From a virus (lineage: Duplodnaviria; Heunggongvirae; Uroviricota; Caudoviricetes), in IMG/VR virus record IMGVR_UViG_3300008987_000001: a stretch of DNA of 64,000 bases, one strand, 5' to 3'. The notes under the pieces were generated by a model that saw only the letters and a list, made by a program, of their open reading frames with translations, ran no database searches and was not told the DNA's origin. The translations under genes and the position numbers were made by a program. Below are positions 18,572-61,599 of this stretch, one piece after another (positions within the stretch are counted from its first letter, which is position 1; each line of letters opens with the position of its first letter).

Positions 18572-18946
18572 CTAGTCTCTAAACATCCAAGTCATGTCGT
18601 ACGATCTGCCGTCCAAGTAATCCTCGCAGAATTGGGCTGCTTCTACTGGTTCGTAGCCTTTGCAACTGAATATGTCGATGAAGGTGCGGCCATCAAACTC
18701 ACTGAAATGCATGGTTATTGATGATGTGTGGATGAATTGCATGGCGCTATAACCGACCAGATCGCCTTCGCCAAAACGTTCAATGTAGGGCTCACCATGT
18801 GGTTCCATGTCAATATATTCAACCAGATCGAGGACAAAATCTCGAATGAATGATGCATCTGTTATCTTATCAAGATCGCAATCGTGAATGGTGAGCATTG
18901 TTGAAAGGCCCCAATGTCCTTCGTCATAAAACTGTTTGGTAATCAT
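18572..18946 (-). CDS. S-adenosylmethionine decarboxylase proenzyme (small pyruvoyl-dependent SpeH/SpeD-like class)
   Basis: LTIHDCD near the N-terminus and GYSAMQFIHTSSITMHFSEF...FIDIFSCKGY match the LAESHISIHTWPE...VDVFTCG pattern. 124 aa. Confidence 0.5.
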   Translation of the reverse strand: MITKQFYDEGHWGLSTMLTIHDCDLDKITDASFIRDFVLDLVEYIDMEPHGEPYIERFGEGDLVGYSAMQFIHTSSITMHFSEFDGRTFIDIFSCKGYEPVEAAQFCEDYLDGRSYDMTWMFRD

Positions 18947-19252: not shown

Positions 19253-19654
19253 ACAGCATATTTATGGAGGATGTAGAGGTTTCGCATAAATGAATAGATA
19301 ATAAGAGCGAGCCAAAATATCCCAGGAATAAGCATGGCTCCGCATAATGCTGCGAGGAATATAATCAGGGCAACTTCCATACAAGACAGCCCAAAAGAAA
19401 TGATGATGGTTAAAATATGATCAAGCATGAATGATCCACTCCTTTACATTTTATATAACCCGCATTTACACCGACCCGTCTCAACGTGTTCTTTACATGG
19501 ACATACATTATCAGGGATGCGTTCAACCTTACATGGGCAATATGCAGCACCATACTTCTTATAATTACGACGAAGTGCTTCAATTATGCGCAATACCCGT
19601 GCCCCATCATCATTTAGTGCCCAGTCAGTCACCTTAAAATTGAAAAAATCATAT

Positions 19655-22600
19655 TCAATATCGTCTGTATCCATTATTACACACCGTAAAATCTCTTGTA
19701 AATGCAAAGTAGCCTAAATTAGTTGACTTGCAAATCTTTAGGGTCATGTCCATAAGACCGCGAGGATCTGGTTTCTGCTCACCGAGGTAAATGTTGCAAA
19801 TGTTTCCACCGTCGAGTATCGGGAAGAATGCCTGCTCAATACGAATCTTTTCAGCGATTTGAATATCAGCATCTACCGGGACGTGCGTACCATTTGTATA
19901 GTAAATTGGCAAATCGCGTGATCCGGTCTCGGCATACTTTTTAATGGCAGCACGAACATCGCCTTTAACAAACTTATGAGCATCGCCATAGTTAAGTAGA
20001 TCAAGCACCGCGAACCTTTGTGCTGTCGTTTCTGCTGGAGTTCTTGAAAATGATAACTTAATATCTTGTTCGGTGGTCATTTTTTTGCAATATTTATTGA
20101 GTTCATTGCATATCTTCAATGTAAACATATGTGCTCCATTATCAGAATACAATGGTTTACCAAGCATAATCTCGCATACCTCATTCATACCAACGATTCC
20201 GATAGTGAATACGTAATCTGATAGGTCTAGGAATGGTGGAATTAATTTTCCAGTGATAGAATCTCGTTTTATATGTGTTGGAAATGGGAGCATGCCATTA
20301 TCTATACACTCGGTTATCCAACCGCGTTTAATTTTAAAAATCTCAATGGCTAATTGAATGTTTTGTTTGCACAATTCTATGAAAGTATCTATGTTACCAG
20401 TGGATTCATATGCATATCGTGGCATGTTGAGCGTTATTACCTGCGCAGAACCCATGGTAAAGTGCTTTCCATCTCTAAAGTATAGTTTGTTATCGAAATC
20501 TGGATCTCCTTCCTCGCCGCTTGAAAACGAAAATGCGCAATTCGAAGATACCATTCCTTGGGCAGTAATAAATAAATGATCTGTTACTTCTACTGGATCA
20601 TATACATCCCCATCATACGGAGATGTTTCTATCTTAACAATTGGTGATTCCCATTTACACTCTTTATTAATACACGCGAAGAAAGATTTAACTTCTTCTT
20701 GTTTATTAAGGGTTAATATATGTCTAGTTTTTCTGTTTGGTCGTTTATCTTCAACGATTGAATACTTAAAATCATATCCAAGGCTACCTGTCAATAACAA
20801 TACCCCTTCAGCTAATGGTTTTGAAATTGTATTCATTTCAATACGAAGAATTTTTGATTTTGTTCCATTCTTACGAAGGCATCCATCGCCACGATAATAT
20901 CCATTTATAAATGCCCATTTACATTTAATTGGGGCATTAAGAATGAATGTCGGAACTGTCATATCGCGACCTTTCATCGCAACACCAATTTCAATAAACC
21001 AATCATGAATCTTATTGCTGTGAATGAATACCGATGTTCCAGCACCCTTATTTACAGACTGTAATTTGGCATCATATCCAAACACATTTTTGATTATAGA
21101 AACGGTTTTATTTATTAAATCAACCTCATGTGATCCATAGCACCACATTAAATGTCTATTTGTTCCATTTGGACTGATCGTGCTACTTCCTTCTGCAGCA
21201 AATAAACCAAGTAAATAACAAAATTCAACATCATTTTGTTCTGATAAAAACTTTGGTATTTTACCATTCGTTGGTAATTCACAATTTATAAAGGCTACAT
21301 CGCCAATAGATAAATTCTTTAATTCTAATATTCCACGATTCTTTATCGGAATTTTATGATCAAATGTACCACATATTCTTCTTCCACCATCTATTTTAAT
21401 AGTATACACATATTCGTTTATATGGTGTATCATAACATGACTGAATCCATGATGTCCAGATGGTGTAACAACAACATCATCATGTTTGAGTTCTGATATT
21501 GGTATGATACGAACCATTCCATTGTCAACAATCTGAATTAACGTATCTGGTAACAACGAACACTGCATGCACGAAATGCCTTTTCCGGCCCCACGATACT
21601 GTGGAATCATGTTATCAAAATATGGGGTTCCAAATTTACTTGCTAATTGAAATGCTGAAAGATATAATTCCCGAATACTTGGGTAATCACCAGACACCCC
21701 ATGCTCATCCTCATATTCCATCTTTGCTATGTATTCGGGTTCGAACGCAATCTCTGGTTTTGGGAAGTAAAATGGTTTGCCTGCGTAATCACCTGCGAGC
21801 ATCACATCCATAAATGCCTTGAATAGCAAACGATTCTCGCGTTCGAACTCTCCATAAGTTTCTGGACCAACATTGCCCTTATAAATCGCAGGCTTGTCGT
21901 TCCACATTTCAGGTATTGAAGGCGATAACTGTACGGAACTGAAAATCTGCTGGCCGCCTCTCGAAGTAAGCATCTGCGTCATTTCAAAGATAAAACATTG
22001 CATATTCTGTTTAATTTCTTTATATGTACAATCTTTGAAATATGGTGACAAAAAGCACAGGAAATTATAGAATCCCTCGCCCCCGGCAAAGTTAACTTGC
22101 CCACTGCCTAAAGTCTTTGATGCGTGGAGTATTGCAACTTCTGGGCGCATTGCCGGTCCTGCAACTGATGTGTGCTCTCCTGTACCATCTCCTGTGAATC
22201 CATAATAAAATACATACCGTAGATCCCAATCAGCACAAAAGTATCTACTTGTGATGTATTCTAAATCATGAATGTGTAAATTACCATTAAGGTGTGCTTC
22301 AGATAAATGCTCTGGGAGCATTAAAAGTGCTTGTTCCTTTGCCAGTTGATCGGCTTTTCTTTTGTGTACGGTTTCTGGGGAACGTTGTAAATTGGCGTTA
22401 TCTCCCTTTCCACCACCAATATCAGTCATTCTCGCATCATACACTGGCATCCCAACACGAGTATATTTGCGCCGACATTCATTCATATCACGTTCTAAAA
22501 ACTTGGTATTAACAAACTCCCTAATAAGTGGGCCTGTTACTGGATCGATTTTTAGAACACTTAATGTATTATATACATCATCAACTATATCTTCAATTGC

Positions 22601-22696
22601 TTTTCCGGTGCACCCAGTTTCTTTACGCACAGAATCGATAACTTTATTTCTATCAAATGATTCAATAGATCCATCATCCTTCCTTACTCTTACCAA
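19655..22696 (-). CDS. Ribonucleotide reductase catalytic body with N-terminal ATP cone, interrupted by an intein; lacks its own glycyl-radical C-terminus (see 22923-23228)
   Basis: ATP-cone motif VRKDDGSIESFDRNKVIDSV. Extein is 672 aa after removing the 341-aa intein. A glutaredoxin and an NrdD-type GRD are encoded directly upstream on the same strand. Confidence 0.6.
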   Translation of the reverse strand: MVRVRKDDGSIESFDRNKVIDSVRKETGCTGKAIEDIVDDVYNTLSVLKIDPVTGPLIREFVNTKFLERDMNECRRKYTRVGMPVYDARMTDIGGGKGDNANLQRSPETVHKRKADQLAKEQALLMLPEHLSEAHLNGNLHIHDLEYITSRYFCADWDLRYVFYYGFTGDGTGEHTSVAGPAMRPEVAILHASKTLGSGQVNFAGGEGFYNFLCFLSPYFKDCTYKEIKQNMQCFIFEMTQMLTSRGGQQIFSSVQLSPSIPEMWNDKPAIYKGNVGPETYGEFERENRLLFKAFMDVMLAGDYAGKPFYFPKPEIAFEPEYIAKMEYEDEHGVSGDYPSIRELYLSAFQLASKFGTPYFDNMIPQYRGAGKGISCMQCSLLPDTLIQIVDNGMVRIIPISELKHDDVVVTPSGHHGFSHVMIHHINEYVYTIKIDGGRRICGTFDHKIPIKNRGILELKNLSIGDVAFINCELPTNGKIPKFLSEQNDVEFCYLLGLFAAEGSSTISPNGTNRHLMWCYGSHEVDLINKTVSIIKNVFGYDAKLQSVNKGAGTSVFIHSNKIHDWFIEIGVAMKGRDMTVPTFILNAPIKCKWAFINGYYRGDGCLRKNGTKSKILRIEMNTISKPLAEGVLLLTGSLGYDFKYSIVEDKRPNRKTRHILTLNKQEEVKSFFACINKECKWESPIVKIETSPYDGDVYDPVEVTDHLFITAQGMVSSNCAFSFSSGEEGDPDFDNKLYFRDGKHFTMGSAQVITLNMPRYAYESTGNIDTFIELCKQNIQLAIEIFKIKRGWITECIDNGMLPFPTHIKRDSITGKLIPPFLDLSDYVFTIGIVGMNEVCEIMLGKPLYSDNGAHMFTLKICNELNKYCKKMTTEQDIKLSFSRTPAETTAQRFAVLDLLNYGDAHKFVKGDVRAAIKKYAETGSRDLPIYYTNGTHVPVDADIQIAEKIRIEQAFFPILDGGNICNIYLGEQKPDPRGLMDMTLKICKSTNLGYFAFTRDFTVCNNGYRRY
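20540..21562 (-). mobile_element. Intein with LAGLIDADG homing-endonuclease domain inside the RNR gene (aa 379-719)
   Basis: N-terminal Cys (CSLLPDTLIQIVDNG block A). LAGLIDADG motifs FCYLLGLFAAEGS and KWAFINGYYRGDGC. C-terminal GMVSSN followed by +1 Cys. Confidence 0.6.
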
Positions 22697-22911
22697 ATTC
22701 CCAACTCCTTGATAGCACCAGACTTGTCATAGTATTCCCCATCAATATCAACGATTGGTGCTTCTACTAATGTTACAGATTTCATCAATAATTCCATTCT
22801 AACATCATCATCCTCAAGATCGCGTGTTATATATTTTATGTCTTTCGATTTTAATAAATTCTTTAAATCGTCACAGTTTGGACAAATTGGTAATGTATAT
22901 ATAATAATCAT
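22690..22911 (-). CDS. Glutaredoxin / NrdH-like redoxin
   Basis: CPNC active-site motif at residues 10-13. About 73 aa thioredoxin fold with PIVDIDGEYY. Confidence 0.55.
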   Translation of the reverse strand: MIIIYTLPICPNCDDLKNLLKSKDIKYITRDLEDDDVRMELLMKSVTLVEAPIVDIDGEYYDKSGAIKELGIW

Positions 22912-22922
22912 ACTATTTCCAT

Positions 22923-23228
22923 TTATAATGAATCATAACGAACGCGGCGTTTTAACTCTTCAACCTTAGCAGAATTCCAAGATCCATTTCCTACTGGACT
23001 ATAGTATCCTGTTATTCGTGATAATACCTGCACATCATGCGCACCACATTCCGGGCACATAAATTCACCACATTCCTCACAGACTTTTATACCATCAACA
23101 ACACCATGACTACATGAACCTGTATCTTGTGAACACATCGTTTCTGGAACCCGTTTACATTCTGGACAACAACCATCTATCAGGTCAGTGTCTGCTAAAA
23201 TAAGTTTACATGTCTGACACTTGAACAT
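22923..23228 (-). CDS. Stand-alone NrdD-type Zn-ribbon + glycyl-radical domain (probable ATG at 23228; the ORF track starts at a TTG at 23243)
   Basis: CxxC pairs (CQTC, CCPEC, CEEC, CPECGAHD) followed by VLSRITGYYSPVGNGSWNSAKVEELKRRVRY. The same layout as the C-terminus of anaerobic RNR as I remember it (RRVCGYLGSPDARPFNAGKQEEVKRRVKH). Confidence 0.6.
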   Translation of the reverse strand: MFKCQTCKLILADTDLIDGCCPECKRVPETMCSQDTGSCSHGVVDGIKVCEECGEFMCPECGAHDVQVLSRITGYYSPVGNGSWNSAKVEELKRRVRYDSL

Positions 23229-23250
23229 ATCATACAGGTGCAATTTGCTA

Positions 23251-23261
23251 ATATATAAGTG
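23251..23261 (-). promoter_or_regulatory. TATA-like box (CACTTATATAT in gene orientation) about 25 nt upstream of the GRD ATG
   Basis: Recurrent motif. Spacing fits an archaeal leaderless transcript. Confidence 0.4.
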
Positions 23262-23285
23262 TAGCGAAGGACGCCCACGACCATC

Positions 23286-23353
23286 ATGCTTGACAAAAGA
23301 AAAGGAAGAAGAAGATCTTCAACCTTTGTATTCTTTAGTCGGGGGGTACCATA
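23286..23353 (-). repeat. Intergenic structured repeat, copy E (between the PCNA gene and the GRD gene)
   Basis: TTATGGTACCCCCC ... GAAGATCTTC palindrome ... TTTTCTTTTGTCAAGCATG. Confidence 0.5.
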
Positions 23354-26807: not shown

Positions 26808-27410
26808 ATGTATTTATGTGGTTTTTGTGGAAATGAAATAGATTTGCATCACAGAGATCAATTATGTTCATGTGGTGTCCCATTTAGACAAGGAATAATA
26901 TACAAACATGTGATAAATTATAACAATCTATCTATATACAATACATCATCAACTGATATTATACATCAAAAATTTAAAGATCTCCAACAATACACTTGCT
27001 CAGAATATTATGATGATGCAACAGATCATGAAGTTATGCATCAAGATTTATGTAACTTAACATTCGAAAATGAATCATTCGACATGGTAATTACACAAGA
27101 TATTATCGAACATGTAATTGATCCATTTAAAGCACTCAATGAAATAAATAGAGTATTGAGACCTAATGGATTTCATTTATGGACAATTCCAATTGACGAA
27201 GATATTGAAACAGCATCATGTACATATGAACTTTATCATGGAGATCCATTAAGGGAATGTGGTATAAAGGTATATACACTATTTGGATTTGATATAATTG
27301 ATATGATACCAAACACATCAATAATTGAAAAATATATTATATTTGAAAAAGTAGAAAATTTAAATTACAATTTATATATTTTAAAAACTATAAAAACTCC
27401 TTGTGAATGA
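26808..27410 (+). CDS. SAM-dependent methyltransferase (Methyltransf_11/23-like)
   Basis: DMVITQDIIEHVIDPFKALNEINRVLRPNGFHLWTIP. Confidence 0.45.
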   Translation: MYLCGFCGNEIDLHHRDQLCSCGVPFRQGIIYKHVINYNNLSIYNTSSTDIIHQKFKDLQQYTCSEYYDDATDHEVMHQDLCNLTFENESFDMVITQDIIEHVIDPFKALNEINRVLRPNGFHLWTIPIDEDIETASCTYELYHGDPLRECGIKVYTLFGFDIIDMIPNTSIIEKYIIFEKVENLNYNLYILKTIKTPCE

Positions 27411-28401
27411 TGTCCTGGCATACTCCATCCAATGCTCTATTTATTGCATCATTGCGACAAAACTGTGGGCAGTCATTGTTGGGTACAGTATTAAACACTT
27501 CATACATTTGCTCACTTTTTAGCACATCAGTAATACTTTGCTCATTTAGATTACCAATGTGATATGCTTTGTTTTGTCTATGGTGGATACATGCCCACAT
27601 TTGATTATCTGCAGTAATGACCGTGTTAAAGTACATGCCATGACACCGTGTATAGGGACGTTCAATCTCACCTACATGATCATACTTGTGGGTTGATGCA
27701 CGGATATTCAGTTTTGGGAATAAATCTTGTCCTTGCTTTATATATTCACTTACATCATTACATTCGCCAGTGAATGGTCGTAATTGAGCAAAATCAACAT
27801 GTAGACTATCAGCACGCTCAAAGAAATCCATGATGCCTGATAAAGTAGATTCACCAGTCAAGTATCCAAGACCAACAGATGTAATAGATTCGCTCACTGC
27901 ACGTAGTTGCATTAACTCATCAACATTATCAATTACATGCCAAAACTCTTCTTCCTCCATGCCATGGGTTAACTTATACATTGCAGGTGTTCCAGCATCT
28001 AATGATACTCTAAAGTATGTACAGCAATCAAGTATAGCACATCGAACATAATCATTGCACATAGCAAGTCCATTAGAGTTAAGTCCAATACTGATACCTG
28101 CATTCTTGAACATGTATAGTGCTTTGACAAAGTGAGGACTCATCATTGGCTCTCCCCCACCACTAATAACCACTGACTGAACATTCAAATTGCTCATTTG
28201 ATCAACAATTGAAGTGATTTGTTCAAGAGTTAACTCTGCGCCATTCTCCTTTACTCCCACACATTTTGGACATCGATTGTTACACTTGTTAGTTAAATCT
28301 AACTCGAATGATATGAGGGTTTCATGACCATGCACATAATTGTGGATTTTATCCTGATACTGTAGGATTTTCTCATTGGCATTGAAGTTGTTTAATTTCA
28401 T
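27388..28401 (-). CDS. Radical-SAM enzyme (probably sugar-modifying; not NrdG-like)
   Basis: CNNRCPKC = CxxxCxxC at residues 39-46. 337 aa, embedded in the glycan cluster. Confidence 0.55.
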   Translation of the reverse strand: MKLNNFNANEKILQYQDKIHNYVHGHETLISFELDLTNKCNNRCPKCVGVKENGAELTLEQITSIVDQMSNLNVQSVVISGGGEPMMSPHFVKALYMFKNAGISIGLNSNGLAMCNDYVRCAILDCCTYFRVSLDAGTPAMYKLTHGMEEEEFWHVIDNVDELMQLRAVSESITSVGLGYLTGESTLSGIMDFFERADSLHVDFAQLRPFTGECNDVSEYIKQGQDLFPKLNIRASTHKYDHVGEIERPYTRCHGMYFNTVITADNQMWACIHHRQNKAYHIGNLNEQSITDVLKSEQMYEVFNTVPNNDCPQFCRNDAINRALDGVCQDIIHKEFL

Positions 28402-28934
28402 GAAAAATACACCGCATTGTCAAAATTTGGCCATGCTTTATCCTTTTCACTTAATTGCGGGGATGTTTCAAACTCAATACATGATAAGGGATTCACTCCA
28501 CGCTCATGAGTTGGCGCATACACATTATCCACCTTATATATAATCTCGGTATCATCCTCAAGAATATGAATGCCATGAGCAAATCCTCTTGGAACCCATA
28601 GAAGGGGTCCATCAGCAGTTAGTTTATATGAGCCGATTTCACCAAATGTTTTGGAATATTGTCGCATGTCCATGAAGTAATCAGTAAGGGAGCCACGTGT
28701 GCAACGAACCAACTTCCCCTGATCATATGGGTAGCGCTGATAATGCATACCACGGAATACACCTGCTTGTGAACGTGAATGATTTTCCTGGATGAAGTCA
28801 AGTCGAATTCCATTATTTAGGAATTCCTTCTCGACATATGATTCCATGAACCACCCACGATCATCACCAATCCGCTTTGGATAAATGATCTTAATATCAG
28901 GCAACTCTTCATGCCTATAAAAAGTGAAAGCCAT
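28398..28934 (-). CDS. rmlC: dTDP-4-dehydrorhamnose 3,5-epimerase (RmlC-type cupin)
   Basis: FRGMHYQ ... LWVPRGFAHGI cupin motifs. 178 aa. Confidence 0.6.
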   Translation of the reverse strand: MAFTFYRHEELPDIKIIYPKRIGDDRGWFMESYVEKEFLNNGIRLDFIQENHSRSQAGVFRGMHYQRYPYDQGKLVRCTRGSLTDYFMDMRQYSKTFGEIGSYKLTADGPLLWVPRGFAHGIHILEDDTEIIYKVDNVYAPTHERGVNPLSCIEFETSPQLSEKDKAWPNFDNAVYFS

Positions 28935-28955
28935 TATATAGTATATAAGTTAGAT

Positions 28956-30101
28956 CTATATAATTCTTCGTATCCAGTTAAGTCTTGTAACAATCTGTTT
29001 ATTTAATACTCGTTGATTAAAATTATTTAGAATATGCTCTTTACATTTATTTCCAAGCATTCTGGCGTATTGTTTATCATTCACCAATGATAGCATGTGC
29101 ATTGAAGCATGACCAATTATTGGATCTGCCCATAAAGATACTGGGTTATATAAACATTGTGATGTCATTGTTTTTATCATATTATAATCGACAAGCAATG
29201 CACATGAACTATCAGTAAATTCCATGGATCCTCCATAAGATGTGACAATAACAGGTTTCCCAAGATACATGGCTTCCATCATTCCAATACCCAGACCTTC
29301 AGATCGATGTAATGATACATAACAATCAGATGCATTTATAAGACCTAAAAATTCTGATTTATCTACAACACCTCGTATATACTTTATATTATTGTAACGC
29401 TTTATGTAATGTATAAATGGTGCTTCTTCAAATGCGAACATTTCACCAAACATTGATTTTATCACTAATTGCACATCTGCTCTATTCCCAAAAGCACTTA
29501 TGAACGAATCAACTACAGCATAAGGATTCTTTCTATCAATAGATCCATAATAATCAAAAGAATAAAAGAATGTAAATTTATTTGAATCCAGTCCATATTT
29601 TTTGTATATTGTGGGTGGTGAGCAAACATCAATTATATTTGTCTCTGGTGCATATGCAAGTTTATGTATTGGGATCCCACGGTGATCAAACTTTTTGAAT
29701 ACATCATAACAGAATTGTGAAAAGCACCATATCTCATCTACATAATTATATGCATCGGTCCATGGGAAATAATCTTCAAGTTCCCAGAACCATACTCCGA
29801 TTGTATACTCATCCTCAGAAATTTGATGGTGATTCACTATACTTATAGCAGATTCAGCCCCGCCAAGAATAACATTTATAGGATAATGATTTGGTTCAAT
29901 AAATGTTAATGTTGATTTAAATGGAGTTACGGTATGTGGAATATCATTATCAATGAGAGATTTATGAAGCACCCTTGCAATTTCCCCCATTCCATTATCA
30001 TGAAGAACTCCAGCGTATAAATCAACTCCGAATGAATTCCATTTATGTTTATTAAAAATAGAATTAGAAATTACAGAAATTGATTTATTTAAATGTAGCA
30101 T
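28956..30101 (-). CDS. Glycosyltransferase, GT-B fold (GT4-like)
   Basis: EGLGIGMMEAMYLGKPVIVTSYGGSMEF (E-x7-E motif region). Confidence 0.5.
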   Translation of the reverse strand: MLHLNKSISVISNSIFNKHKWNSFGVDLYAGVLHDNGMGEIARVLHKSLIDNDIPHTVTPFKSTLTFIEPNHYPINVILGGAESAISIVNHHQISEDEYTIGVWFWELEDYFPWTDAYNYVDEIWCFSQFCYDVFKKFDHRGIPIHKLAYAPETNIIDVCSPPTIYKKYGLDSNKFTFFYSFDYYGSIDRKNPYAVVDSFISAFGNRADVQLVIKSMFGEMFAFEEAPFIHYIKRYNNIKYIRGVVDKSEFLGLINASDCYVSLHRSEGLGIGMMEAMYLGKPVIVTSYGGSMEFTDSSCALLVDYNMIKTMTSQCLYNPVSLWADPIIGHASMHMLSLVNDKQYARMLGNKCKEHILNNFNQRVLNKQIVTRLNWIRRII

Positions 30102-31080
30102 TTATGAATCCACCCCACTTATTAATAAAATAACAACGTTCATTGTATTCTATGAGTTGCTTTTCAAGCGTTGTGTCATATCCACGGGTCTTTGATTCGT
30201 AATGATATAACTTGGCATATGGCGTATATAAAACCTTATAATTTGCCTGATTCACTTTCATGCACAGATCAATATCATTATATGCAATTGGTAAATTATC
30301 ATCCATTCCACCAAGATCCAAATATAATTCACGCTTTATTGCAACACATGCTCCAGTAACCGCTGGATATATCATTGGCTCATTTGTCCGAGGATAAATG
30401 TCACACTTATGAGAATTTACATGCATAAATCCACCAATCACTTCACTATATACAACCCCACAGTGCTGTATAGTATGGTCAGCAAATAACAATTTAGCAC
30501 CAGTCATTCCAATAGTTGGATCGTCTATCATTGGACCAACCAATTGTTCAATCCATGTAGGTTCAATAATTTCAGTATCATTATTCAGCATGATAATATA
30601 TTCACCAGAACAATGAGGTATCACGGCATTATGAATTGCTGCATAATTATACTCCAATGGATAATCAAATACCAGTATGTTATATGGGCAGTTATCAAGC
30701 CAATCAACGGTATATTCATCACTCTGATTATTCACCACTATAATTTCATAATTGTTATGGGTTGATGACGTTACTATAGATCCAATACACTTGTTTAGAT
30801 CTTTAAGATGATCTCTTGTTGGAATAACAATAGTGACTAGTGTATCATTTAGATCATATGATGGTACATTTTCAAATTTATACAACTCGCAATTCATAGG
30901 TATACTTCTAACTTTATATGCAATGTGATTCGAGATGTCAATCCATTCTTGTTTTTTAAATAATGGTCCAAGTAATCCTAATACAAATCCTCCAATTAAC
31001 ATTTTATTTTTCTGTGAAAATATATAATGTGTAAAGTACAATGACAATACTCCGTTAATATAATTCAACTTACTTATCAT
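30085..31080 (-). CDS. Glycosyltransferase family 2 (GT-A), N-terminal TM
   Basis: VTIVIPTRDHLKDLNKCIGSI ... IIMLNNDTEII (DxD). Confidence 0.5.
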   Translation of the reverse strand: MISKLNYINGVLSLYFTHYIFSQKNKMLIGGFVLGLLGPLFKKQEWIDISNHIAYKVRSIPMNCELYKFENVPSYDLNDTLVTIVIPTRDHLKDLNKCIGSIVTSSTHNNYEIIVVNNQSDEYTVDWLDNCPYNILVFDYPLEYNYAAIHNAVIPHCSGEYIIMLNNDTEIIEPTWIEQLVGPMIDDPTIGMTGAKLLFADHTIQHCGVVYSEVIGGFMHVNSHKCDIYPRTNEPMIYPAVTGACVAIKRELYLDLGGMDDNLPIAYNDIDLCMKVNQANYKVLYTPYAKLYHYESKTRGYDTTLEKQLIEYNERCYFINKWGGFINATFK

Positions 31081-31921
31081 GATTTATATAGTCCTTTAAT
31101 GCTCGTTCCCAATATGGTGTATATATAATATGCGATGCCATTGATGTATTACATTGTCCATTCGGTGACTCAAATGGTTCAATTTCTATAGATAAATTTG
31201 CTAATTCTTTTATTTTACAAGCAAACTCATACCAGGAACAAGATCCGGCATTATTTAAATGAAATGTTCCTCTAAAATTATTACGTACAAGTAAATTCAA
31301 CGCACCAGTTGCATCCCGACAATACGTTGGACTCATAATAATATTATCTGGTATCGAAAGATCATCTATAGCATGCAACACTTTCTCTATGAAATTTGGA
31401 CCCTTGTTACTTGATCCTTTGAGACCGAAGAGACTGGACACTCTCCCAATAATATAATTGTCAGTGACATCCATTATGGCTTGTTCACCACACACCTTAC
31501 TCCTCCCATATTCATTGAGAGGTGCTACAGGATCGTCCTCATAATATGGAGAGCCTTTCCTTCCATCAAATACATAGTCAGTGGAGAAGTGAATAAATGT
31601 AGCATCAATATCATTACAAGTGTATGCCATGGACTTTGGCACCTCACAGTTCATTAGGTGTGCTAACCGTGGGTTATTCTCACACCCATCAACATCATGA
31701 TATGCTGTACAATTAATCACAATGGATGGCCCCACTTCACTTATATATTTATATACAACTTCAGCATCCCTGACATCAAGATCGTGGTGACTTGGAGCAA
31801 TTGCATCAAATGCCTTGACAATCTCACACCCCAATTGTCCCGAACCACCAAATACCAAAACACGTGACATTATATAATAGTTAGTTTTCGTATATATAAA
31901 TCTAATTGTTATACAACCCAC
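31070..31921 (-). CDS. rmlD: dTDP-4-dehydrorhamnose reductase (RmlD-type short-chain reductase)
   Basis: VLVFGGSGQLG Rossmann motif. Family-typical length 283 aa. Confidence 0.55.
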   Translation of the reverse strand: MGCITIRFIYTKTNYYIMSRVLVFGGSGQLGCEIVKAFDAIAPSHHDLDVRDAEVVYKYISEVGPSIVINCTAYHDVDGCENNPRLAHLMNCEVPKSMAYTCNDIDATFIHFSTDYVFDGRKGSPYYEDDPVAPLNEYGRSKVCGEQAIMDVTDNYIIGRVSSLFGLKGSSNKGPNFIEKVLHAIDDLSIPDNIIMSPTYCRDATGALNLLVRNNFRGTFHLNNAGSCSWYEFACKIKELANLSIEIEPFESPNGQCNTSMASHIIYTPYWERALKDYINHDK

Positions 31922-34800: not shown

Positions 34801-35185
34801 ATAATGCTCGTGGGGGTTTTGATCATTGCATTATAGCACATGGTTTCACAGGGTAATACAGTGAGTAATTCACCATACACACTCCATGTGGTCAGGCCAT
34901 CTGACTTAAACTGGGTTGGTGATTTGATACACTGGTGATTTAGGTGAAACCCTTGGTGGGAATTTAACCCACATACTTGCGTCTATCACCAGTTCTGTGA
35001 CGTTGCTGCAGTATTCTTTCACATGCTTAATTACAAGGGCATGTGGATTGTCAATGTGATTCCTTGTCTATGCTCCTACGGGTGGAATCAACCCTGCGAG
35101 TCACAGCCATAGACCGCCGTATCCCGCCGAGTCGTTTCACGGGATAATTACACACTCCAACTGAATGGACTAGCGACAGTGTGGA

Positions 35186-35266
35186 TAATCGGTGCAGGAA
35201 TCGAACCTGCGACCCAATTCGGGATGACCTTTTCAGTCACGACTTTACCAATTCATCCAACCGATT
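35186..35266 (-). tRNA. tRNA-like gene, 81 nt, class-II architecture (perfect 7-bp acceptor stem AATCGGT/ACCGATT, T arm GCAGG-TTCGATT-CCTGC, variable-arm hairpin CCC-GAATT-GGG); anticodon not confidently assigned
   Basis: Hand folding of the reverse complement. Followed by a TCCA trailer. Confidence 0.5.
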
Positions 35267-35527
35267 ATTGCATTTTTTATCTGTCACTACCTAGGATAAC
35301 AGTCCTGTTATGCTTCAGGATAACCGACGGTTGGAATTGAACCAACTTTGCACCCTACTTGTCTCATCGATTACATATTATGGTGTGACCCATAAACATG
35401 TCAGACCTATCGTGGTTAGGCCAAGTTTGGTTTCGACCAACACCGTTGATCCCCTGTTTTCCTTCAGGGAGGCTTCTGGAGGTTGTTTTCACCTCTTTTA
35501 AGTTTGTTTATACCAGCCACGATCTGG

Positions 35528-60219: not shown

Positions 60220-61599
60220 TCAAACATATGACATTATCCTATTACGAATAGTATCTAAATCCTCTTCGATTAGTAATTTACCATTTTCATAGACTAATGG
60301 TAAATTAAACTTACCAGGTTTACTTTCCTTCCCAATAGTAGTTTTGTTTACATCTATCCACTCATTGTTTCGTTTGATGCAACTTGCTTTGATTGCCCAA
60401 CGATTCGTATCACGATTATGTTTTTGGAGTAATGATCCACCACTACCAAAGATAATGTTACTTGGTGCAAAGTGATGAATACTCACTACCTCATGGAGTA
60501 TTTGACTTATCGTATGGGCATCTATACCATCACCATAGATGACGCCGACACGTGAATTTAATACTTTGTAACCACGTTCATTTTTACTCCCACCATATGC
60601 ATCCCATAGATAGTTGAGAATTTTTACAGATACTTTAACTGGATTCCCAGTATCTGGCCTGATTACGCACTTGTCCCGACGATTAAGGATCAATTCTTTG
60701 AGATCGTTGCAGAAATATTGCTTCACTGCATGTTCCCAGTCATACGAATCACATACTAGACTAATTACTGTTGCATTACCAAATCGCTTATCAGATTCTT
60801 CAATTATATGTCTATAGGCTTCGCATTCATGTTCTTGACCCCAACTAGTAATTGTGCTATGTTCTGCAGCAATAACCGATCCACCACAAACATCACTATT
60901 GTAATACCAACGGGCTTTTTCTATAGATGGAATATTATCTGTACCTTGGAAGATTAATAAATGACCTAGCCCACATAATTCGGCACTGGTTAAACTTGAT
61001 GCACCACGAAGTCCAAAGTCATTTAAGTGAAATGGACTTACCTGTTCACCTGCTACATCTGCATACTTTTTGATTCGTTTGTATATATCATAAGATATGG
61101 TTGCAGTATTGGACATAGCATAACAATGCATGAGTAATGACTCTACGTAATTAGTTAACCATGGAACTTGTTCATCTGTATTCTCAATTGCCAACACTGG
61201 AGTTCCTGGTTTAACTATAGTTCCTTCTGGTAATGCATAAATACGCAGGGGTAATGATCCACTATGTTCATTAATAATGTGATTCCAACCATCACGATTG
61301 AAAAAGTTATTACTGCCCATAGAATTTATTACATGTTCAGCCTCTGATACCATTTCACGAGTTAGATAGGTGTGTATAAAATTGTAATGTTTTAATATGA
61401 ATTGTAATCCACACCATACAATGTCCTCATACTGTGCTCCAACACGCGGTTCCATGTAACTATACACTACTTGAGTATCTGGGGGATACTGAAAATAGTG
61501 GGTTGCTTTGTAATAATCAGTTAGAGTTATAAAATTTCTATCTCTCATACGTCTCATCAACTTGTGATTGTGTAAGGGATTACATAGAGTATTACTCAT
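60220..61599 (-). CDS. Nicotinamide phosphoribosyltransferase (NAMPT/NadV family)
   Basis: N-terminal LTDYYKATHYFQYP ... VYSYMEPR typical of NAMPT/PncB. 459 aa. Confidence 0.55.
   Translation of the reverse strand: MSNTLCNPLHNHKLMRRMRDRNFITLTDYYKATHYFQYPPDTQVVYSYMEPRVGAQYEDIVWCGLQFILKHYNFIHTYLTREMVSEAEHVINSMGSNNFFNRDGWNHIINEHSGSLPLRIYALPEGTIVKPGTPVLAIENTDEQVPWLTNYVESLLMHCYAMSNTATISYDIYKRIKKYADVAGEQVSPFHLNDFGLRGASSLTSAELCGLGHLLIFQGTDNIPSIEKARWYYNSDVCGGSVIAAEHSTITSWGQEHECEAYRHIIEESDKRFGNATVISLVCDSYDWEHAVKQYFCNDLKELILNRRDKCVIRPDTGNPVKVSVKILNYLWDAYGGSKNERGYKVLNSRVGVIYGDGIDAHTISQILHEVVSIHHFAPSNIIFGSGGSLLQKHNRDTNRWAIKASCIKRNNEWIDVNKTTIGKESKPGKFNLPLVYENGKLLIEEDLDTIRNRIMSYV

What the first reader, a model, noticed from the sequence alone, without database searches (positions are those of the whole stretch)
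20540..21562. LAGLIDADG intein inserted in the RNR catalytic body
- aa 379-719 of the RNR ORF form a classical intein: an N-terminal Cys in a CSLLPDTLI block, two LAGLIDADG motifs (LLGLFAAEGS, FINGYYRGDGC), and a C-terminal …SSN followed by Cys.
- Removing it leaves an extein of plausible RNR length.
- Inteins in RNR genes mark highly conserved catalytic sites and mobile homing endonucleases.
Basis: partly seen in the sequence, partly recalled or inferred. Interest (0 to 1): 0.6.

Follow-up and report, generated by a model that had tools for sequence, protein, structure and literature searches.

The report
Homing-endonuclease intein in viral anaerobic RNR
A self-splicing, mobile protein insert (an intein with a LAGLIDADG homing endonuclease) sits between the two catalytic-loop cysteines of a virus-encoded anaerobic ribonucleotide reductase.

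Summary
The finding is real. The 1013-aa ORF at 19655..22696 (-) is a class III anaerobic ribonucleotide reductase (NrdD, NrdD3-type with a QCCA finger loop). It is interrupted in frame by a LAGLIDADG intein.

The N-terminal boundary is off by one codon. A 93%-identical intein-less allele (673 aa) reads GISCMQCCAFSFS, and the insertion is exactly 340 aa / 1020 nt. The intein is therefore Ser380..Asn719 (nt 20540..21559). Ser, not Cys, is residue 1, and Cys720 is the +1 nucleophile. The corrected junction (CMQC/CAFSFS) restores the motif exactly.

- **Fold:** the AlphaFold model (pLDDT 92.5) matches solved intein endonucleases (TliVMA, E 1.4e-20).
- **Catalytic residues:** all class 1 splicing residues except the dispensable penultimate His are present, as are both endonuclease acidic residues.
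- **Recent mobility:**
  - an occupied and an empty allele have 98% identical exteins, with a co-converted junction;
  - dN/dS is 0.08 on the endonuclease domain;
  - intein GC3 is 0.21 against 0.33-0.36 in the exteins.

Clostridium phage c-st NrdD carries an unrelated intein at the same Cys|Cys site. Verdict: a new member of a known kind, of modest interest.

The parts
19655..22696 (-). nrdD precursor ORF (1013 aa plus stop): ATP-cone, NrdD barrel, and the in-frame intein
   Evidence: ORF list. Pfam NRDD E 7.6e-119 and ATP-cone. NCBIfam TIGR02487 NrdD scores 393 bits against a cutoff of 326.
21560..22696 (-). N-extein, aa 1-379, ending ...GKGISCMQC. Cys379 is the first Cys of the finger-loop QCCA motif.
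   Evidence: The TIGR02487 match ends at residue 379. Codon alignment with the empty alleles P0002 and P0006.
20540..21559 (-). Intein, 340 aa, Ser380..Asn719 (SLLPDT...GMVSSN)
   Evidence: Exactly 1020 nt are absent from the empty alleles. AF2 plus Foldseek match intein endonucleases. GC is 0.326 and GC3 0.206, against 0.39-0.41 and 0.33-0.36 in the exteins.
21542..21559 (-). Block A: S1-L-L-P-D5-T6. Ser1 is the step-1 nucleophile.
   Evidence: Position 1 aligns with Cys1 or Ser1 of 17 related inteins. The D5/T6 register is canonical only if Ser is residue 1.
21353..21370 (-). Block B: G-T65-F-D-H68-K (Thr B:7 and His B:10; precursor T444 and H447)
   Evidence: T65 and H68 are invariant in alignment A2. 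Their roles are given in PMC4031507.
20660..21262 (-). LAGLIDADG homing-endonuclease domain (about intein residues 100-300)
   Evidence: Pfam LAGLIDADG_3 has two stretches. The AF2 secondary structure shows alpha-beta-beta-alpha-beta-beta-alpha twice. Foldseek hits I-DmoI and I-Tsp061I. dN/dS is 0.08 against P0008.
21185..21214 (-). LAGLIDADG motif 1: LLGLFAAEGS (catalytic Glu, intein E123)
   Evidence: Coordinates. G118, A122, E123 and G124 are invariant in A2.
20879..20911 (-). LAGLIDADG motif 2: FINGYYRGDGC (catalytic Asp, intein D225)
   Evidence: Coordinates. G220, Y221, R223, G224, D225 and G226 are invariant in A2.
20585..20608 (-). Block F: DVYDPVEV (Asp F:4 is intein D321)
   Evidence: V319, Y320 and D321 are invariant in A2. 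Coordinates.
20537..20557 (-). Block G plus the +1 residue: GMVSSN|C. Asn719 cyclises, Ser718 replaces the usual penultimate His, and Cys720 is the +1 nucleophile.
   Evidence: N340 is invariant. Cys720 aligns with the second Cys of QCCA, SCCR or MGCR, which is the finger-loop catalytic Cys.
19655..20539 (-). C-extein, aa 720-1013 plus stop (CAFSFSSGEEG...FTVCNNGYRRY*). It ends before the Zn-ribbon and glycyl-radical domain.
   Evidence: The Pfam NRDD match reaches only profile position 516 of 562. Alignment to P0002.
22923..23243 (-). Context: stand-alone glycyl-radical domain ORF (106 aa; CxxC...CxxC...SRITGYY), the missing C-terminus of NrdD
   Evidence: Pfam NRDD profile positions 508-562, E 6.5e-14. 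TIGR02487 positions 525-581. It lies in the same position in L001-L003.
22690..22911 (-). Context: glutaredoxin/NrdH-like redoxin, overlapping the nrdD start
   Evidence: Pfam Glutaredoxin E 3.9e-10. NCBIfam GlrX_YruB and GlrX_NrdH matches, all below their cutoffs.
19444..19707 (-). Context: ORF resembling the ferredoxin:thioredoxin reductase catalytic subunit (CPC...CPC...CKC), overlapping the nrdD stop
   Evidence: Pfam FeThRed_B E 7.6e-8, 32.8 bits against a cutoff of 22. The same gene follows nrdD in L001-L003 and in phage c-st.

Best explanation
This is a class 1 intein of 340 aa (Ser380..Asn719) with a nested two-motif LAGLIDADG homing endonuclease. It is inserted in frame between the two adjacent cysteines of the finger-loop motif QC|CA of a virus-encoded class III (NrdD3-type) ribonucleotide reductase.

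Inferred splicing mechanism:
1. The 1013-aa precursor is translated. NrdD cannot be active at this stage, because the insert splits the loop that carries the catalytic cysteine.
2. The HINT domain folds, and Ser380 attacks the Cys379-Ser380 peptide bond (N-O acyl shift, helped by Thr444 and His447).
3. Cys720 takes over the N-extein by transesterification.
4. Asn719 cyclises and releases the intein.
5. An S-N shift joins Cys379 to Cys720. This recreates ...GISCMQCCAFSFS..., the sequence of intein-less alleles.

Inferred mobility: the freed intein acts as a site-specific DNA endonuclease. It cuts intein-less nrdD alleles around ...ATG CAA TGT^TGC GCA TTT... in co-infecting relatives. Repair from the intein-bearing copy then inserts the intein, together with a few flanking codons (homing).

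Shown here: the insertion boundaries, the fold, the catalytic residues, purifying selection, presence/absence polymorphism and the co-converted flanks. Inferred: actual splicing and actual DNA cleavage.
For: Boundaries
- The empty allele P0002 (93% aa identity) is 673 aa against 1013 aa here, and reads GISCMQCCAFSFS.
- The DNA alignment shows one 1020-nt gap, between TGT (Cys379) and TGC (Cys720).
- C376, Q378, C379 and C380 are invariant in 11 intein-less homologs.
- CxQCC is uninterrupted in 111 of 121 proteins examined.
- The TIGR02487 NrdD match stops at residue 379.
- Related inteins at the same site read QC|C-L-P... Their Cys1 aligns with Ser380 here.
- Ser1 is conserved in five inteins down to 54% identity, with a synonymous change (TCG and TCA).

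Intein identity
- Pfam LAGLIDADG_3, Hom_end and Intein_splicing all match.
- PDB hits are PI-PkoII and VMA inteins.
- The AF2 model has pLDDT 92.5.
- Foldseek gives TliVMA intein E 1.4e-20 with TM 0.77, then PhoVMA, PI-PkoII, PI-PfuI and PI-SceI.
- T65, H68, E123, D225, D321 and N340 are invariant across the family. These are the residues listed as catalytic in PMC4031507.

Insertion site
- QCCR/A is the NrdD3 finger-loop motif, and its second Cys aligns with the single Cys of the T4 MGCR motif (PMC9669993; PMC4493059).

Mobility
- P0006 (empty) and P0008 (occupied) have exteins 98.1% identical at the nucleotide level.
- 12 of their 36 differing codons lie within 40 codons of the junction (P = 6e-4).
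- Codons -1, +1, +2 and +4 of P0008 differ from P0006 and match the window's allele.
- dN/dS is 0.12 for the intein and 0.08 for the endonuclease domain. Intein pS is 0.56, lower than the saturated extein pS of 0.76.
- Intein GC3 is 0.206, against 0.33 and 0.36 in the exteins.
Against: - No experiment: neither splicing nor cleavage was observed.
- The penultimate residue is Ser, not the usual His. The whole family lacks this His. Such inteins are known to splice, but sometimes slowly (PMC4031507).
- The Pfam Intein_splicing score (33.4 bits) is just under its gathering cutoff of 35.8.
- Block F position 13 is not a clear His; His is two residues away.
- The co-conversion evidence rests on one allele pair, and the actual donor is unknown.
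- Equating Cys720 with the radical Cys rests on motif alignment from the literature. My own PDB alignments did not cover this loop.
Confidence: 0.87

Rival explanations
1. The intein is Cys379..Asn719 (341 aa) with Cys1 as nucleophile, and splicing yields a single-Cys finger loop (...CMQ-CAFSFS...).
For: A Cys lies immediately upstream of Ser380, and Cys1 is the commonest intein start. A single-Cys finger loop (MGCR) does exist in other class III RNRs.
Against: - The insertion relative to two empty alleles is 340 aa / 1020 nt, not 341 aa.
- Both Cys are invariant in the clade.
- The block A register (D5, T6) and the alignment to 17 relatives place Ser at position 1.
- Relatives at this site have three Cys in total (QC|C...N|C).
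- The NrdD profile match includes residue 379.
Confidence: 0.03
2. The intein is splicing-competent, but its endonuclease is no longer active. The element persists only by vertical inheritance, because precise loss from an essential catalytic loop is hard.
For: - This is a stage of the intein life cycle as generally described (own knowledge). Decayed endonucleases do occur in this very family: P0123's a-site intein lacks both motifs, and P0128 and P0130 have Asn in place of the acidic residue.
- The intein and exteins of the window and P0008 have similar amino-acid divergence, about 81% against 82% identity.
Against: - Both catalytic acidic residues are intact (E123, D225), and both motifs are invariant among the close relatives.
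- dN/dS on the endonuclease domain is 0.08, lower than on the splicing domain.
- The intein's synonymous divergence is lower than that of the exteins.
- Occupied and empty alleles have 98% identical exteins, and the flank is co-converted.
Confidence: 0.2
3. The insert is a dead, non-splicing remnant, and nrdD here is a pseudogene or an inactive protein.
For: The penultimate His is missing (Ser718). The NrdD body lacks its glycyl-radical domain, and no NrdG-like activase gene was found in the 64-kb window.
Against: - The 1013-codon frame is open.
- Every obligatory splicing residue is present and conserved.
- Both the intein and the exteins are under strong purifying selection.
- The glycyl-radical domain is present as a conserved separate gene, in the same operon order in at least four contigs.
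- Inteins lacking the penultimate His are known to splice (PMC4031507).
Confidence: 0.04

Closest known systems
Intein in the NrdD of Clostridium botulinum phage c-st (CST076, NC_007581; reported as a putative intein in PMC3653736)
   Same: - The host enzyme is the same: phage-encoded class III RNR.
- The insertion point is the same, between the two Cys of the double-Cys finger-loop motif: ALASC|CFDGQQ...GIITHN|CRLTSS.
- It also carries a two-motif LAGLIDADG endonuclease.
- The gene neighbourhood is similar: a glutaredoxin upstream and an FTR-like ORF downstream.
   Different: - The intein itself is barely related: best BLASTP E 0.02, over motif regions only.
- It starts with Cys1 and ends with the canonical His-Asn.
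- Its host NrdD is SCCR type (T. maritima-like), only about 24% identical, and keeps a fused glycyl-radical domain with NrdG adjacent.
Uncharacterised metagenomic NrdD finger-loop inteins (P0005, P0008, P0024, P0121-P0131, P0003, P0025, P0043)
   Same: - They are true homologs: 27-81% identity over the full length.
- They share the same blocks and the same lack of a penultimate His.
- They occupy the same loop of NrdD3-type proteins, in both viral-type split NrdDs and NrdDs that keep the fused C-terminal glycyl-radical domain.
   Different: - Many sit one codon upstream (Q|CC, the 'a' site) rather than at C|C (the 'b' site).
- Most start with Cys1.
- Some have decayed endonuclease motifs.
- None has been named or studied, as far as the tools show.
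Thermococcus litoralis and Pyrococcus horikoshii VMA inteins (PDB 7qsu, 7qss, 7qst); PI-PkoII (2cw7); PI-PfuI (1dq3); PI-SceI (1vde)
   Same: They share the overall architecture, a HINT splicing domain with a nested two-motif LAGLIDADG endonuclease. They are the best structural matches: E 1e-20 to 1e-14, TM up to 0.77. PI-PfuI also resides in an RNR (own knowledge).
   Different: - Sequence identity is only 12-18%.
- The host proteins differ: V-ATPase A, DNA polymerase, class II RNR.
- All of them start with Cys1 (own knowledge).
- The larger ones carry extra DNA-recognition regions; this intein, at 340 aa, is compact.

Membership tests
Class 1 intein (HINT domain, four-step splicing) | In-frame insertion whose removal restores the conserved host sequence | tested here: met
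   Removing Ser380..Asn719 gives 673 aa with ...CMQCCAFSFS..., identical at the junction to the empty allele P0002.
Class 1 intein (HINT domain, four-step splicing) | Cys or Ser nucleophile at intein position 1 | tested here: met
   Ser380. It aligns with Cys1 or Ser1 of 17 relatives. The requirement is stated in PMC4031507.
Class 1 intein (HINT domain, four-step splicing) | Block B Thr (B:7) and His (B:10) | tested here: met
   The sequence is GT65FDH68. Both residues are invariant in A2.
Class 1 intein (HINT domain, four-step splicing) | Block F Asp (F:4) | tested here: met
   The residue is D321 in V-Y-D321-P, invariant in A2.
Class 1 intein (HINT domain, four-step splicing) | C-terminal Asn followed by a Cys, Ser or Thr at +1 | tested here: met
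   The sequence reads ...VSSN719|C720. N340 is invariant.
Class 1 intein (HINT domain, four-step splicing) | Penultimate His (G:6), common but not obligatory | tested here: not met
   The residue is Ser718. The whole family has S, G or R here. Inteins lacking His G:6 are described as still splicing (PMC4031507), so this does not exclude membership.
Class 1 intein (HINT domain, four-step splicing) | HINT fold | tested here: met
   The AF2 model has pLDDT 92.5 and pTM 0.91. Foldseek matches full-length solved inteins with probability 1.00. The Pfam Intein_splicing score (33.4 bits) is slightly below its cutoff of 35.8.
Class 1 intein (HINT domain, four-step splicing) | Demonstrated protein splicing | not testable with these tools
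   This needs expression of the precursor and detection of the ligated extein.
LAGLIDADG homing endonuclease (monomeric, two-motif, intein-encoded) | Two LAGLIDADG motifs, each with a catalytic acidic residue | tested here: met
   The motifs are LLGLFAAE123GS and FINGYYRGD225GC. Both acidic residues are invariant among the 8 aligned inteins.
LAGLIDADG homing endonuclease (monomeric, two-motif, intein-encoded) | Profile and fold match | tested here: met
   Pfam LAGLIDADG_3 scores 53.2 bits against a cutoff of 22.5, and Hom_end 22.1 against 21.1. Foldseek hits I-DmoI, I-Tsp061I and I-SceI.
LAGLIDADG homing endonuclease (monomeric, two-motif, intein-encoded) | Site-specific cleavage of the empty allele, and homing | not testable with these tools
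   Only indirect evidence is available: presence/absence polymorphism, co-converted junction codons, low dN/dS, and lower dS than the host gene.
Class III RNR catalytic subunit NrdD, NrdD3 subtype (the host protein) | NrdD equivalog profile above its trusted cutoff | tested here: met
   TIGR02487 scores 393.3 bits against a cutoff of 326.35, in two stretches that flank the intein.
Class III RNR catalytic subunit NrdD, NrdD3 subtype (the host protein) | QCCR/A finger-loop motif without Met (PMC9669993) | tested here: met
   The spliced sequence is C-M-Q-C-C-A. The active-site Glu that the same definition requires to be absent was not checked.
Class III RNR catalytic subunit NrdD, NrdD3 subtype (the host protein) | C-terminal Zn-ribbon and glycyl-radical domain on the same polypeptide | tested here: not met
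   The ORF ends at profile position 516 of 562. The remainder is encoded by the separate ORF at 22923..23243.

The most novel reading that the evidence does not exclude
The intein may act as a redox-gated maturation switch for an oxygen-sensitive enzyme. Both residues that flank it are the finger-loop cysteines (Cys379 at -1, Cys720 at +1), and residue 1 is a redox-inert Ser. Oxidation could then block transesterification: a Cys379-Cys720 disulfide, or a disulfide to the beta-A Cys154. The viral NrdD would be completed only under reducing, anoxic conditions. The adjacent glutaredoxin-like and FTR-like proteins could reduce both the precursor and the mature enzyme. Nothing here tests this; it is only not excluded. 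Redox-trapped inteins are known in other proteins (own knowledge; compare PMC6195587, listed).
Probability: 0.08. Interest if true: 0.6.

Novelty: new member of a known kind. Interest (0 to 1): 0.3.

Why it matters
- **Annotation:** the gene must be read as precursor, intein and extein, with the splice junction at Cys379|Ser380 and Asn719|Cys720. The mature enzyme then has the intact QCCA finger loop. An automatic or by-eye Cys1 call would predict a protein that lacks an invariant cysteine.
- **Biology:** this adds a well-supported, apparently recently mobile intein to the known set in ribonucleotide reductases. The same Cys|Cys position of NrdD has been colonised independently in a Clostridium phage and in a clade of uncultivated, probably methanogen-infecting viruses. 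That fits the rule that inteins target the most constrained catalytic residues.
- **Practical use:** a compact 340-aa intein with Ser1 and Cys+1, plus its endonuclease, could be a source of new splicing or meganuclease scaffolds. That is only a possibility, not a demonstrated use.

Tried and rejected
- **Megablast of 19400-23300 against GenBank phages:** no match. tblastn finds only distant NrdDs, the best being Methanobacterium virus PhiF1 at 33%. It finds no close intein either; the best hits are 24-32% over the LAGLIDADG region in unrelated phage genes.
- **Word-indexed protein search with the intein:** one hit only. It did not return the alleles already listed, probably a limit of its word index. 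The exhaustive representative search was needed instead.
- **Contig look-up for the window's own protein (P0001):** not on record, so no sample metadata was obtained.
- **Primary papers on NrdD2 and NrdD3 (PMC4246965, PMC4697749):** not held. The motif equivalences were taken from PMC4493059 and PMC9669993 instead.
- **Direct sequence alignment of the finger loop to solved NrdDs:** the HMMER local alignments did not align the CC motif to the corresponding cysteines of any solved NrdD. The identification of Cys720 with the radical Cys therefore rests on the literature motif alignment.
- **Search for an NrdG activase in the window:** only one CxxxCxxC ORF was found (27388..28401), and it is a radical SAM/SPASM protein, not NrdG-like.
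- **Considered and rejected:**
  - a group I intron or free-standing endonuclease gene (the frame is continuous and a HINT fold is present; Rfam finds only tRNAs);
  - a class 2 intein (it needs Ala1);
  - a class 3 intein (it needs Cys at F:4; here it is Asp);
  - a BIL domain (it lacks the +1 nucleophile; here it is Cys).
Full report
**1. What is at the coordinates**

The region lies inside one long ORF on the minus strand, 19655..22696, 1013 aa, with a TTG start. Reader residues 379-719 correspond to nt 20540..21562. The quoted strings are all present: CSLLPDTLI, LLGLFAAEGS, FINGYYRGDGC and ...VSSN followed by Cys.

Profile searches on the whole ORF give:
- Pfam NRDD, E 7.6e-119, in two stretches;
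- an N-terminal ATP-cone;
- LAGLIDADG_3, Hom_end and Intein_splicing in the middle;
- NCBIfam's NrdD equivalog TIGR02487 at 393 bits against a cutoff of 326, again in two stretches, the first ending at residue 379.

The host is therefore a class III (anaerobic, glycyl-radical) ribonucleotide reductase catalytic subunit.

**2. Is the insert an intein?**

Sequence evidence for the insert alone:
- LAGLIDADG_3, E 3.6e-14, 53 bits against a cutoff of 22.5.
- Hom_end, 22.1 bits against 21.1.
- Intein_splicing, E 4.7e-8; at 33.4 bits it is just below the 35.8 cutoff.
- Sequence hits in the PDB to PI-PkoII and archaeal V-ATPase inteins.

Structural evidence:
- An AlphaFold2 model built on eight family members is confident: pLDDT 92.5, pTM 0.91. 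It has beta-rich N- and C-terminal parts flanking two alpha-beta-beta-alpha-beta-beta-alpha units.
- Foldseek against the PDB returns only intein endonucleases at the top: TliVMA 7qsu (E 1.4e-20, TM 0.77), PhoVMA, PI-PkoII, PI-PfuI and PI-SceI. Free-standing LAGLIDADG enzymes such as I-DmoI follow.

The residues that PMC4031507 lists as running class 1 splicing are present and invariant in the family alignment:
- Thr65 and His68 (block B);
- Asp321 (block F, position 4);
- the terminal Asn340, followed by Cys at +1.

The two endonuclease acidic residues, Glu123 and Asp225, are also invariant. The one departure is Ser instead of His at the penultimate position. The whole family shares this, and the same review describes it as tolerated.

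**3. Where exactly are the splice junctions?**

A search with the spliced host sequence found the window's own protein (P0001). It also found close relatives both with and without the insert.

- P0002 is 93% identical, 673 aa long, and reads ...GKGISCMQCCAFSFSSGEEG....
- The window reads ...GKGISCMQC-SLLPDT...GMVSSN-CAFSFSSGEEG...
- 1013 minus 673 is 340, not 341.
- At the DNA level, the window and P0008 carry one 1020-nt block that is absent from P0002 and P0006. It lies between TGT (Cys379) and TGC (Cys720).

That cysteine is conserved:
- It is invariant in 11 aligned intein-less homologs (C376, Q378, C379 and C380 in P0002 numbering).
- CxQCC is uninterrupted in 111 of the 121 proteins examined.

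Three further observations fix Ser380 as residue 1:
- The block A register (Asp5, Thr6) is canonical only with Ser at position 1.
- Homologous inteins at the same site read QC|CLP..., so their Cys1 aligns with Ser380 here and the extein Cys precedes it.
- Ser1 is kept in five inteins down to 54% identity, with a synonymous codon change, TCG against TCA.

The intein is therefore Ser380..Asn719, nt 20540..21559.

**4. What the insertion site is**

- PMC9669993 classifies class III RNRs by their finger-loop motif: MGCR (one Cys, T4), MCCR or SCCR (two Cys), and QCCR/A for the NrdD3 clade.
- PMC4493059 aligns T. maritima 328-SCCR-331 with T4 288-MGCR-291.
- On that alignment, Cys720 (the second Cys, and the splicing +1 nucleophile) corresponds to the finger-loop catalytic cysteine.
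- In the related N. bacilliformis SCCR enzyme, one of the two loop Cys forms the disulfide with the beta-A Cys.

The intein thus splits the catalytic loop between its two cysteines. This equivalence is taken from the literature, because my own alignments to solved NrdDs did not cover the loop.

**5. Relatives of the intein**

An exhaustive search of 1.8 billion representatives gave 1072 hits at E <= 1e-3 and 7 at E <= 1e-30. The nine best are all NrdD proteins interrupted in this same loop.

They use two adjacent positions:
- **'b' site, C|C:** the window, P0005, P0008, P0024, P0121, P0122, P0124, P0125, P0127.
- **'a' site, Q|CC:** P0003, P0025, P0043, P0126, P0128, P0130, P0131.

The a- and b-site inteins are homologous over their whole length, at 27-37% identity.

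In deposited genomes, the NrdD of Clostridium phage c-st has an intein at exactly the b position: ALASC|CFDGQQ...ITHN|CRLTSS. That intein is barely similar in sequence. NrdD is already recognised as a frequent target of introns and inteins in phages (PMC3653736; PMC12880540).

**6. Evidence for recent mobility**

- **Polymorphism.** P0006 (empty, L002) and P0008 (occupied, L003) have exteins 98.1% identical at the nucleotide level.
- **Clustering of differences.** Of their 36 differing codons, 12 lie within 40 codons of the junction, where 4.3 are expected (P = 6e-4). Four lie within 4 codons (P = 9e-4).
- **Co-conversion.** At codons -1, +1, +2 and +4, P0008 carries the same codons as the window's intein-bearing allele. 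This is what co-conversion during homing would produce.
- **Selection.** Between the window and P0008, intein dN/dS is 0.12, and 0.08 on the endonuclease domain. The intein's synonymous difference (pS 0.56) is lower than that of the exteins (0.76, saturated).
- **Composition.** The intein is AT-richer than its host gene: GC 0.326 and GC3 0.206, against GC 0.39-0.41 and GC3 0.33-0.36.

Together these favour an endonuclease that is, or recently was, active. One allele pair is not proof, however.

**7. Mechanism (inferred)**

1. The precursor is translated.
2. Ser380 makes an N-O acyl shift.
3. Cys720 takes the N-extein by transesterification.
4. Asn719 cyclises and releases the intein.
5. An S-N shift gives ...CMQC-CAFSFS...
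6. The excised intein then acts as a LAGLIDADG endonuclease on empty nrdD alleles.

The enzyme cannot be active before splicing, because the catalytic loop is interrupted.

**8. Context**

The nrdD gene sits in an operon-like block, all on the minus strand:
- a 106-aa ORF (22923..23243) that carries the Zn-ribbon and glycyl-radical motif missing from the NrdD body (NRDD profile positions 508-562; SRITGYY);
- a glutaredoxin/NrdH-like ORF (22690..22911);
- nrdD itself;
- an ORF resembling the ferredoxin:thioredoxin reductase catalytic subunit (19444..19707).

The same order recurs in L001-L003.

The rest of the window looks viral:
- family B DNA polymerase;
- a thymidylate-synthase-like gene;
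- a PD-(D/E)XK nuclease;
- KilA-N and Bro-N proteins;
- NAMPT;
- three tRNAs;
- weak PHROG hits, one of them to a minor tail protein.

The nearest cellular NrdDs, at 51-52% identity, are from methanogens: Methanoregula, Methanothrix and Methanomicrobiales. The host is therefore probably a methanogenic archaeon. This is inference only.

**9. Verdict**

This is a new member of a known kind: an intein-encoded LAGLIDADG endonuclease at a catalytic cysteine of an RNR, at a site already occupied by an unrelated intein in a sequenced phage. Interest is modest. The more unusual observations lie around it and are listed separately: the split glycyl-radical domain, the two adjacent insertion sites, and a relative with two inteins separated by a single Cys.

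Noticed in passing
window 22923..23243 (-) together with 19655..22696 (-): NrdD is split.
- The 1013-aa body ends at ...FTVCNNGYRRY, before the Zn-ribbon and glycyl-radical domain.
- A separate 106-aa ORF, two genes upstream, carries CxxC...CxxC...SRITGYY (NRDD profile positions 508-562).
- The order GRD, Grx, NrdD, FTR-like is conserved in L001-L003.
- Ten stand-alone homologs of about 100 aa exist.
- The Methanoregula NrdD P0071 (728 aa) also lacks the domain, with no such ORF adjacent.

A free-standing glycyl-radical subunit for an RNR may be the most unusual thing in this region.
   Followed up: partly
L007 3001..8814 (protein P0123, 1937 aa): A related NrdD carries four inteins. Two of them (aa 988-1284 and 1286-1636) occupy the two adjacent finger-loop sites at once, separated by a single extein residue (Cys1285)...CYQ|CIPANT...LLSSN|C|CVTEET...MLSSN|CAYNF. 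That Cys would be the +1 nucleophile of one intein and the -1 residue of the next. The upstream intein has lost its LAGLIDADG motifs.
   Followed up: partly
proteins P0003, P0025, P0043, P0126-P0131 compared with the window intein (window 20540..21559): Homologous inteins use two insertion points one codon apart: Q|CC and C|C. Site does not follow similarity. P0127 (C|C) is closest to P0128 and P0130 (Q|CC), and P0123's Q|CC intein is closest to C|C inteins. This suggests repeated one-codon site shifts, made possible by the repeated Cys codon. It rests on identity clustering only, with no proper phylogeny.
   Followed up: partly
proteins P0004, P0013, P0014, P0019, P0021, P0026, P0122, P0123, P0130: The same NrdD clade has at least three further intein sites:
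- before the invariant beta-A Cys (RRF|C...HN|CADYDL; P0014, P0123);
- at QTQK|S...HN|SGG (P0013);
- at RGGQ|S...HN|T (P0004, P0019, P0021, P0026, P0122, P0123, and a short version in P0130).

This small viral enzyme family is an intein hot spot.
   Followed up: no
window 19444..19707 (-) and 22690..22911 (-): An ORF resembling the ferredoxin:thioredoxin reductase catalytic subunit (CPC...CPC...CKC) and a glutaredoxin/NrdH-like ORF flank nrdD and overlap its ends. This is the partner set reported for the Methanosarcina barkeri NrdD3 system (paper title seen; the paper itself is not held). Phage c-st has the same pair around its intein-bearing nrdD.
   Followed up: partly
window 35182..35267 (-): ARAGORN calls an 86-nt tRNA-Phe with the unusual anticodon AAA, next to tRNA-Gln(TTG) and tRNA-Leu(CAA). 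Rfam confirms three tRNAs, and this one scores lowest, at 39.7 bits.
   Followed up: no
window 18572..18946 (-), 60220..61599 (-), 27388..28401 (-), 28398..31921 (-): Auxiliary metabolic genes in a virus-like genome:
- an S-adenosylmethionine decarboxylase-like protein;
- a NAMPT-type nicotinamide phosphoribosyltransferase;
- a radical SAM/SPASM protein;
- a dTDP-rhamnose pathway and glycosyltransferase cluster.

No NrdG-like activase was found in the window.
   Followed up: no
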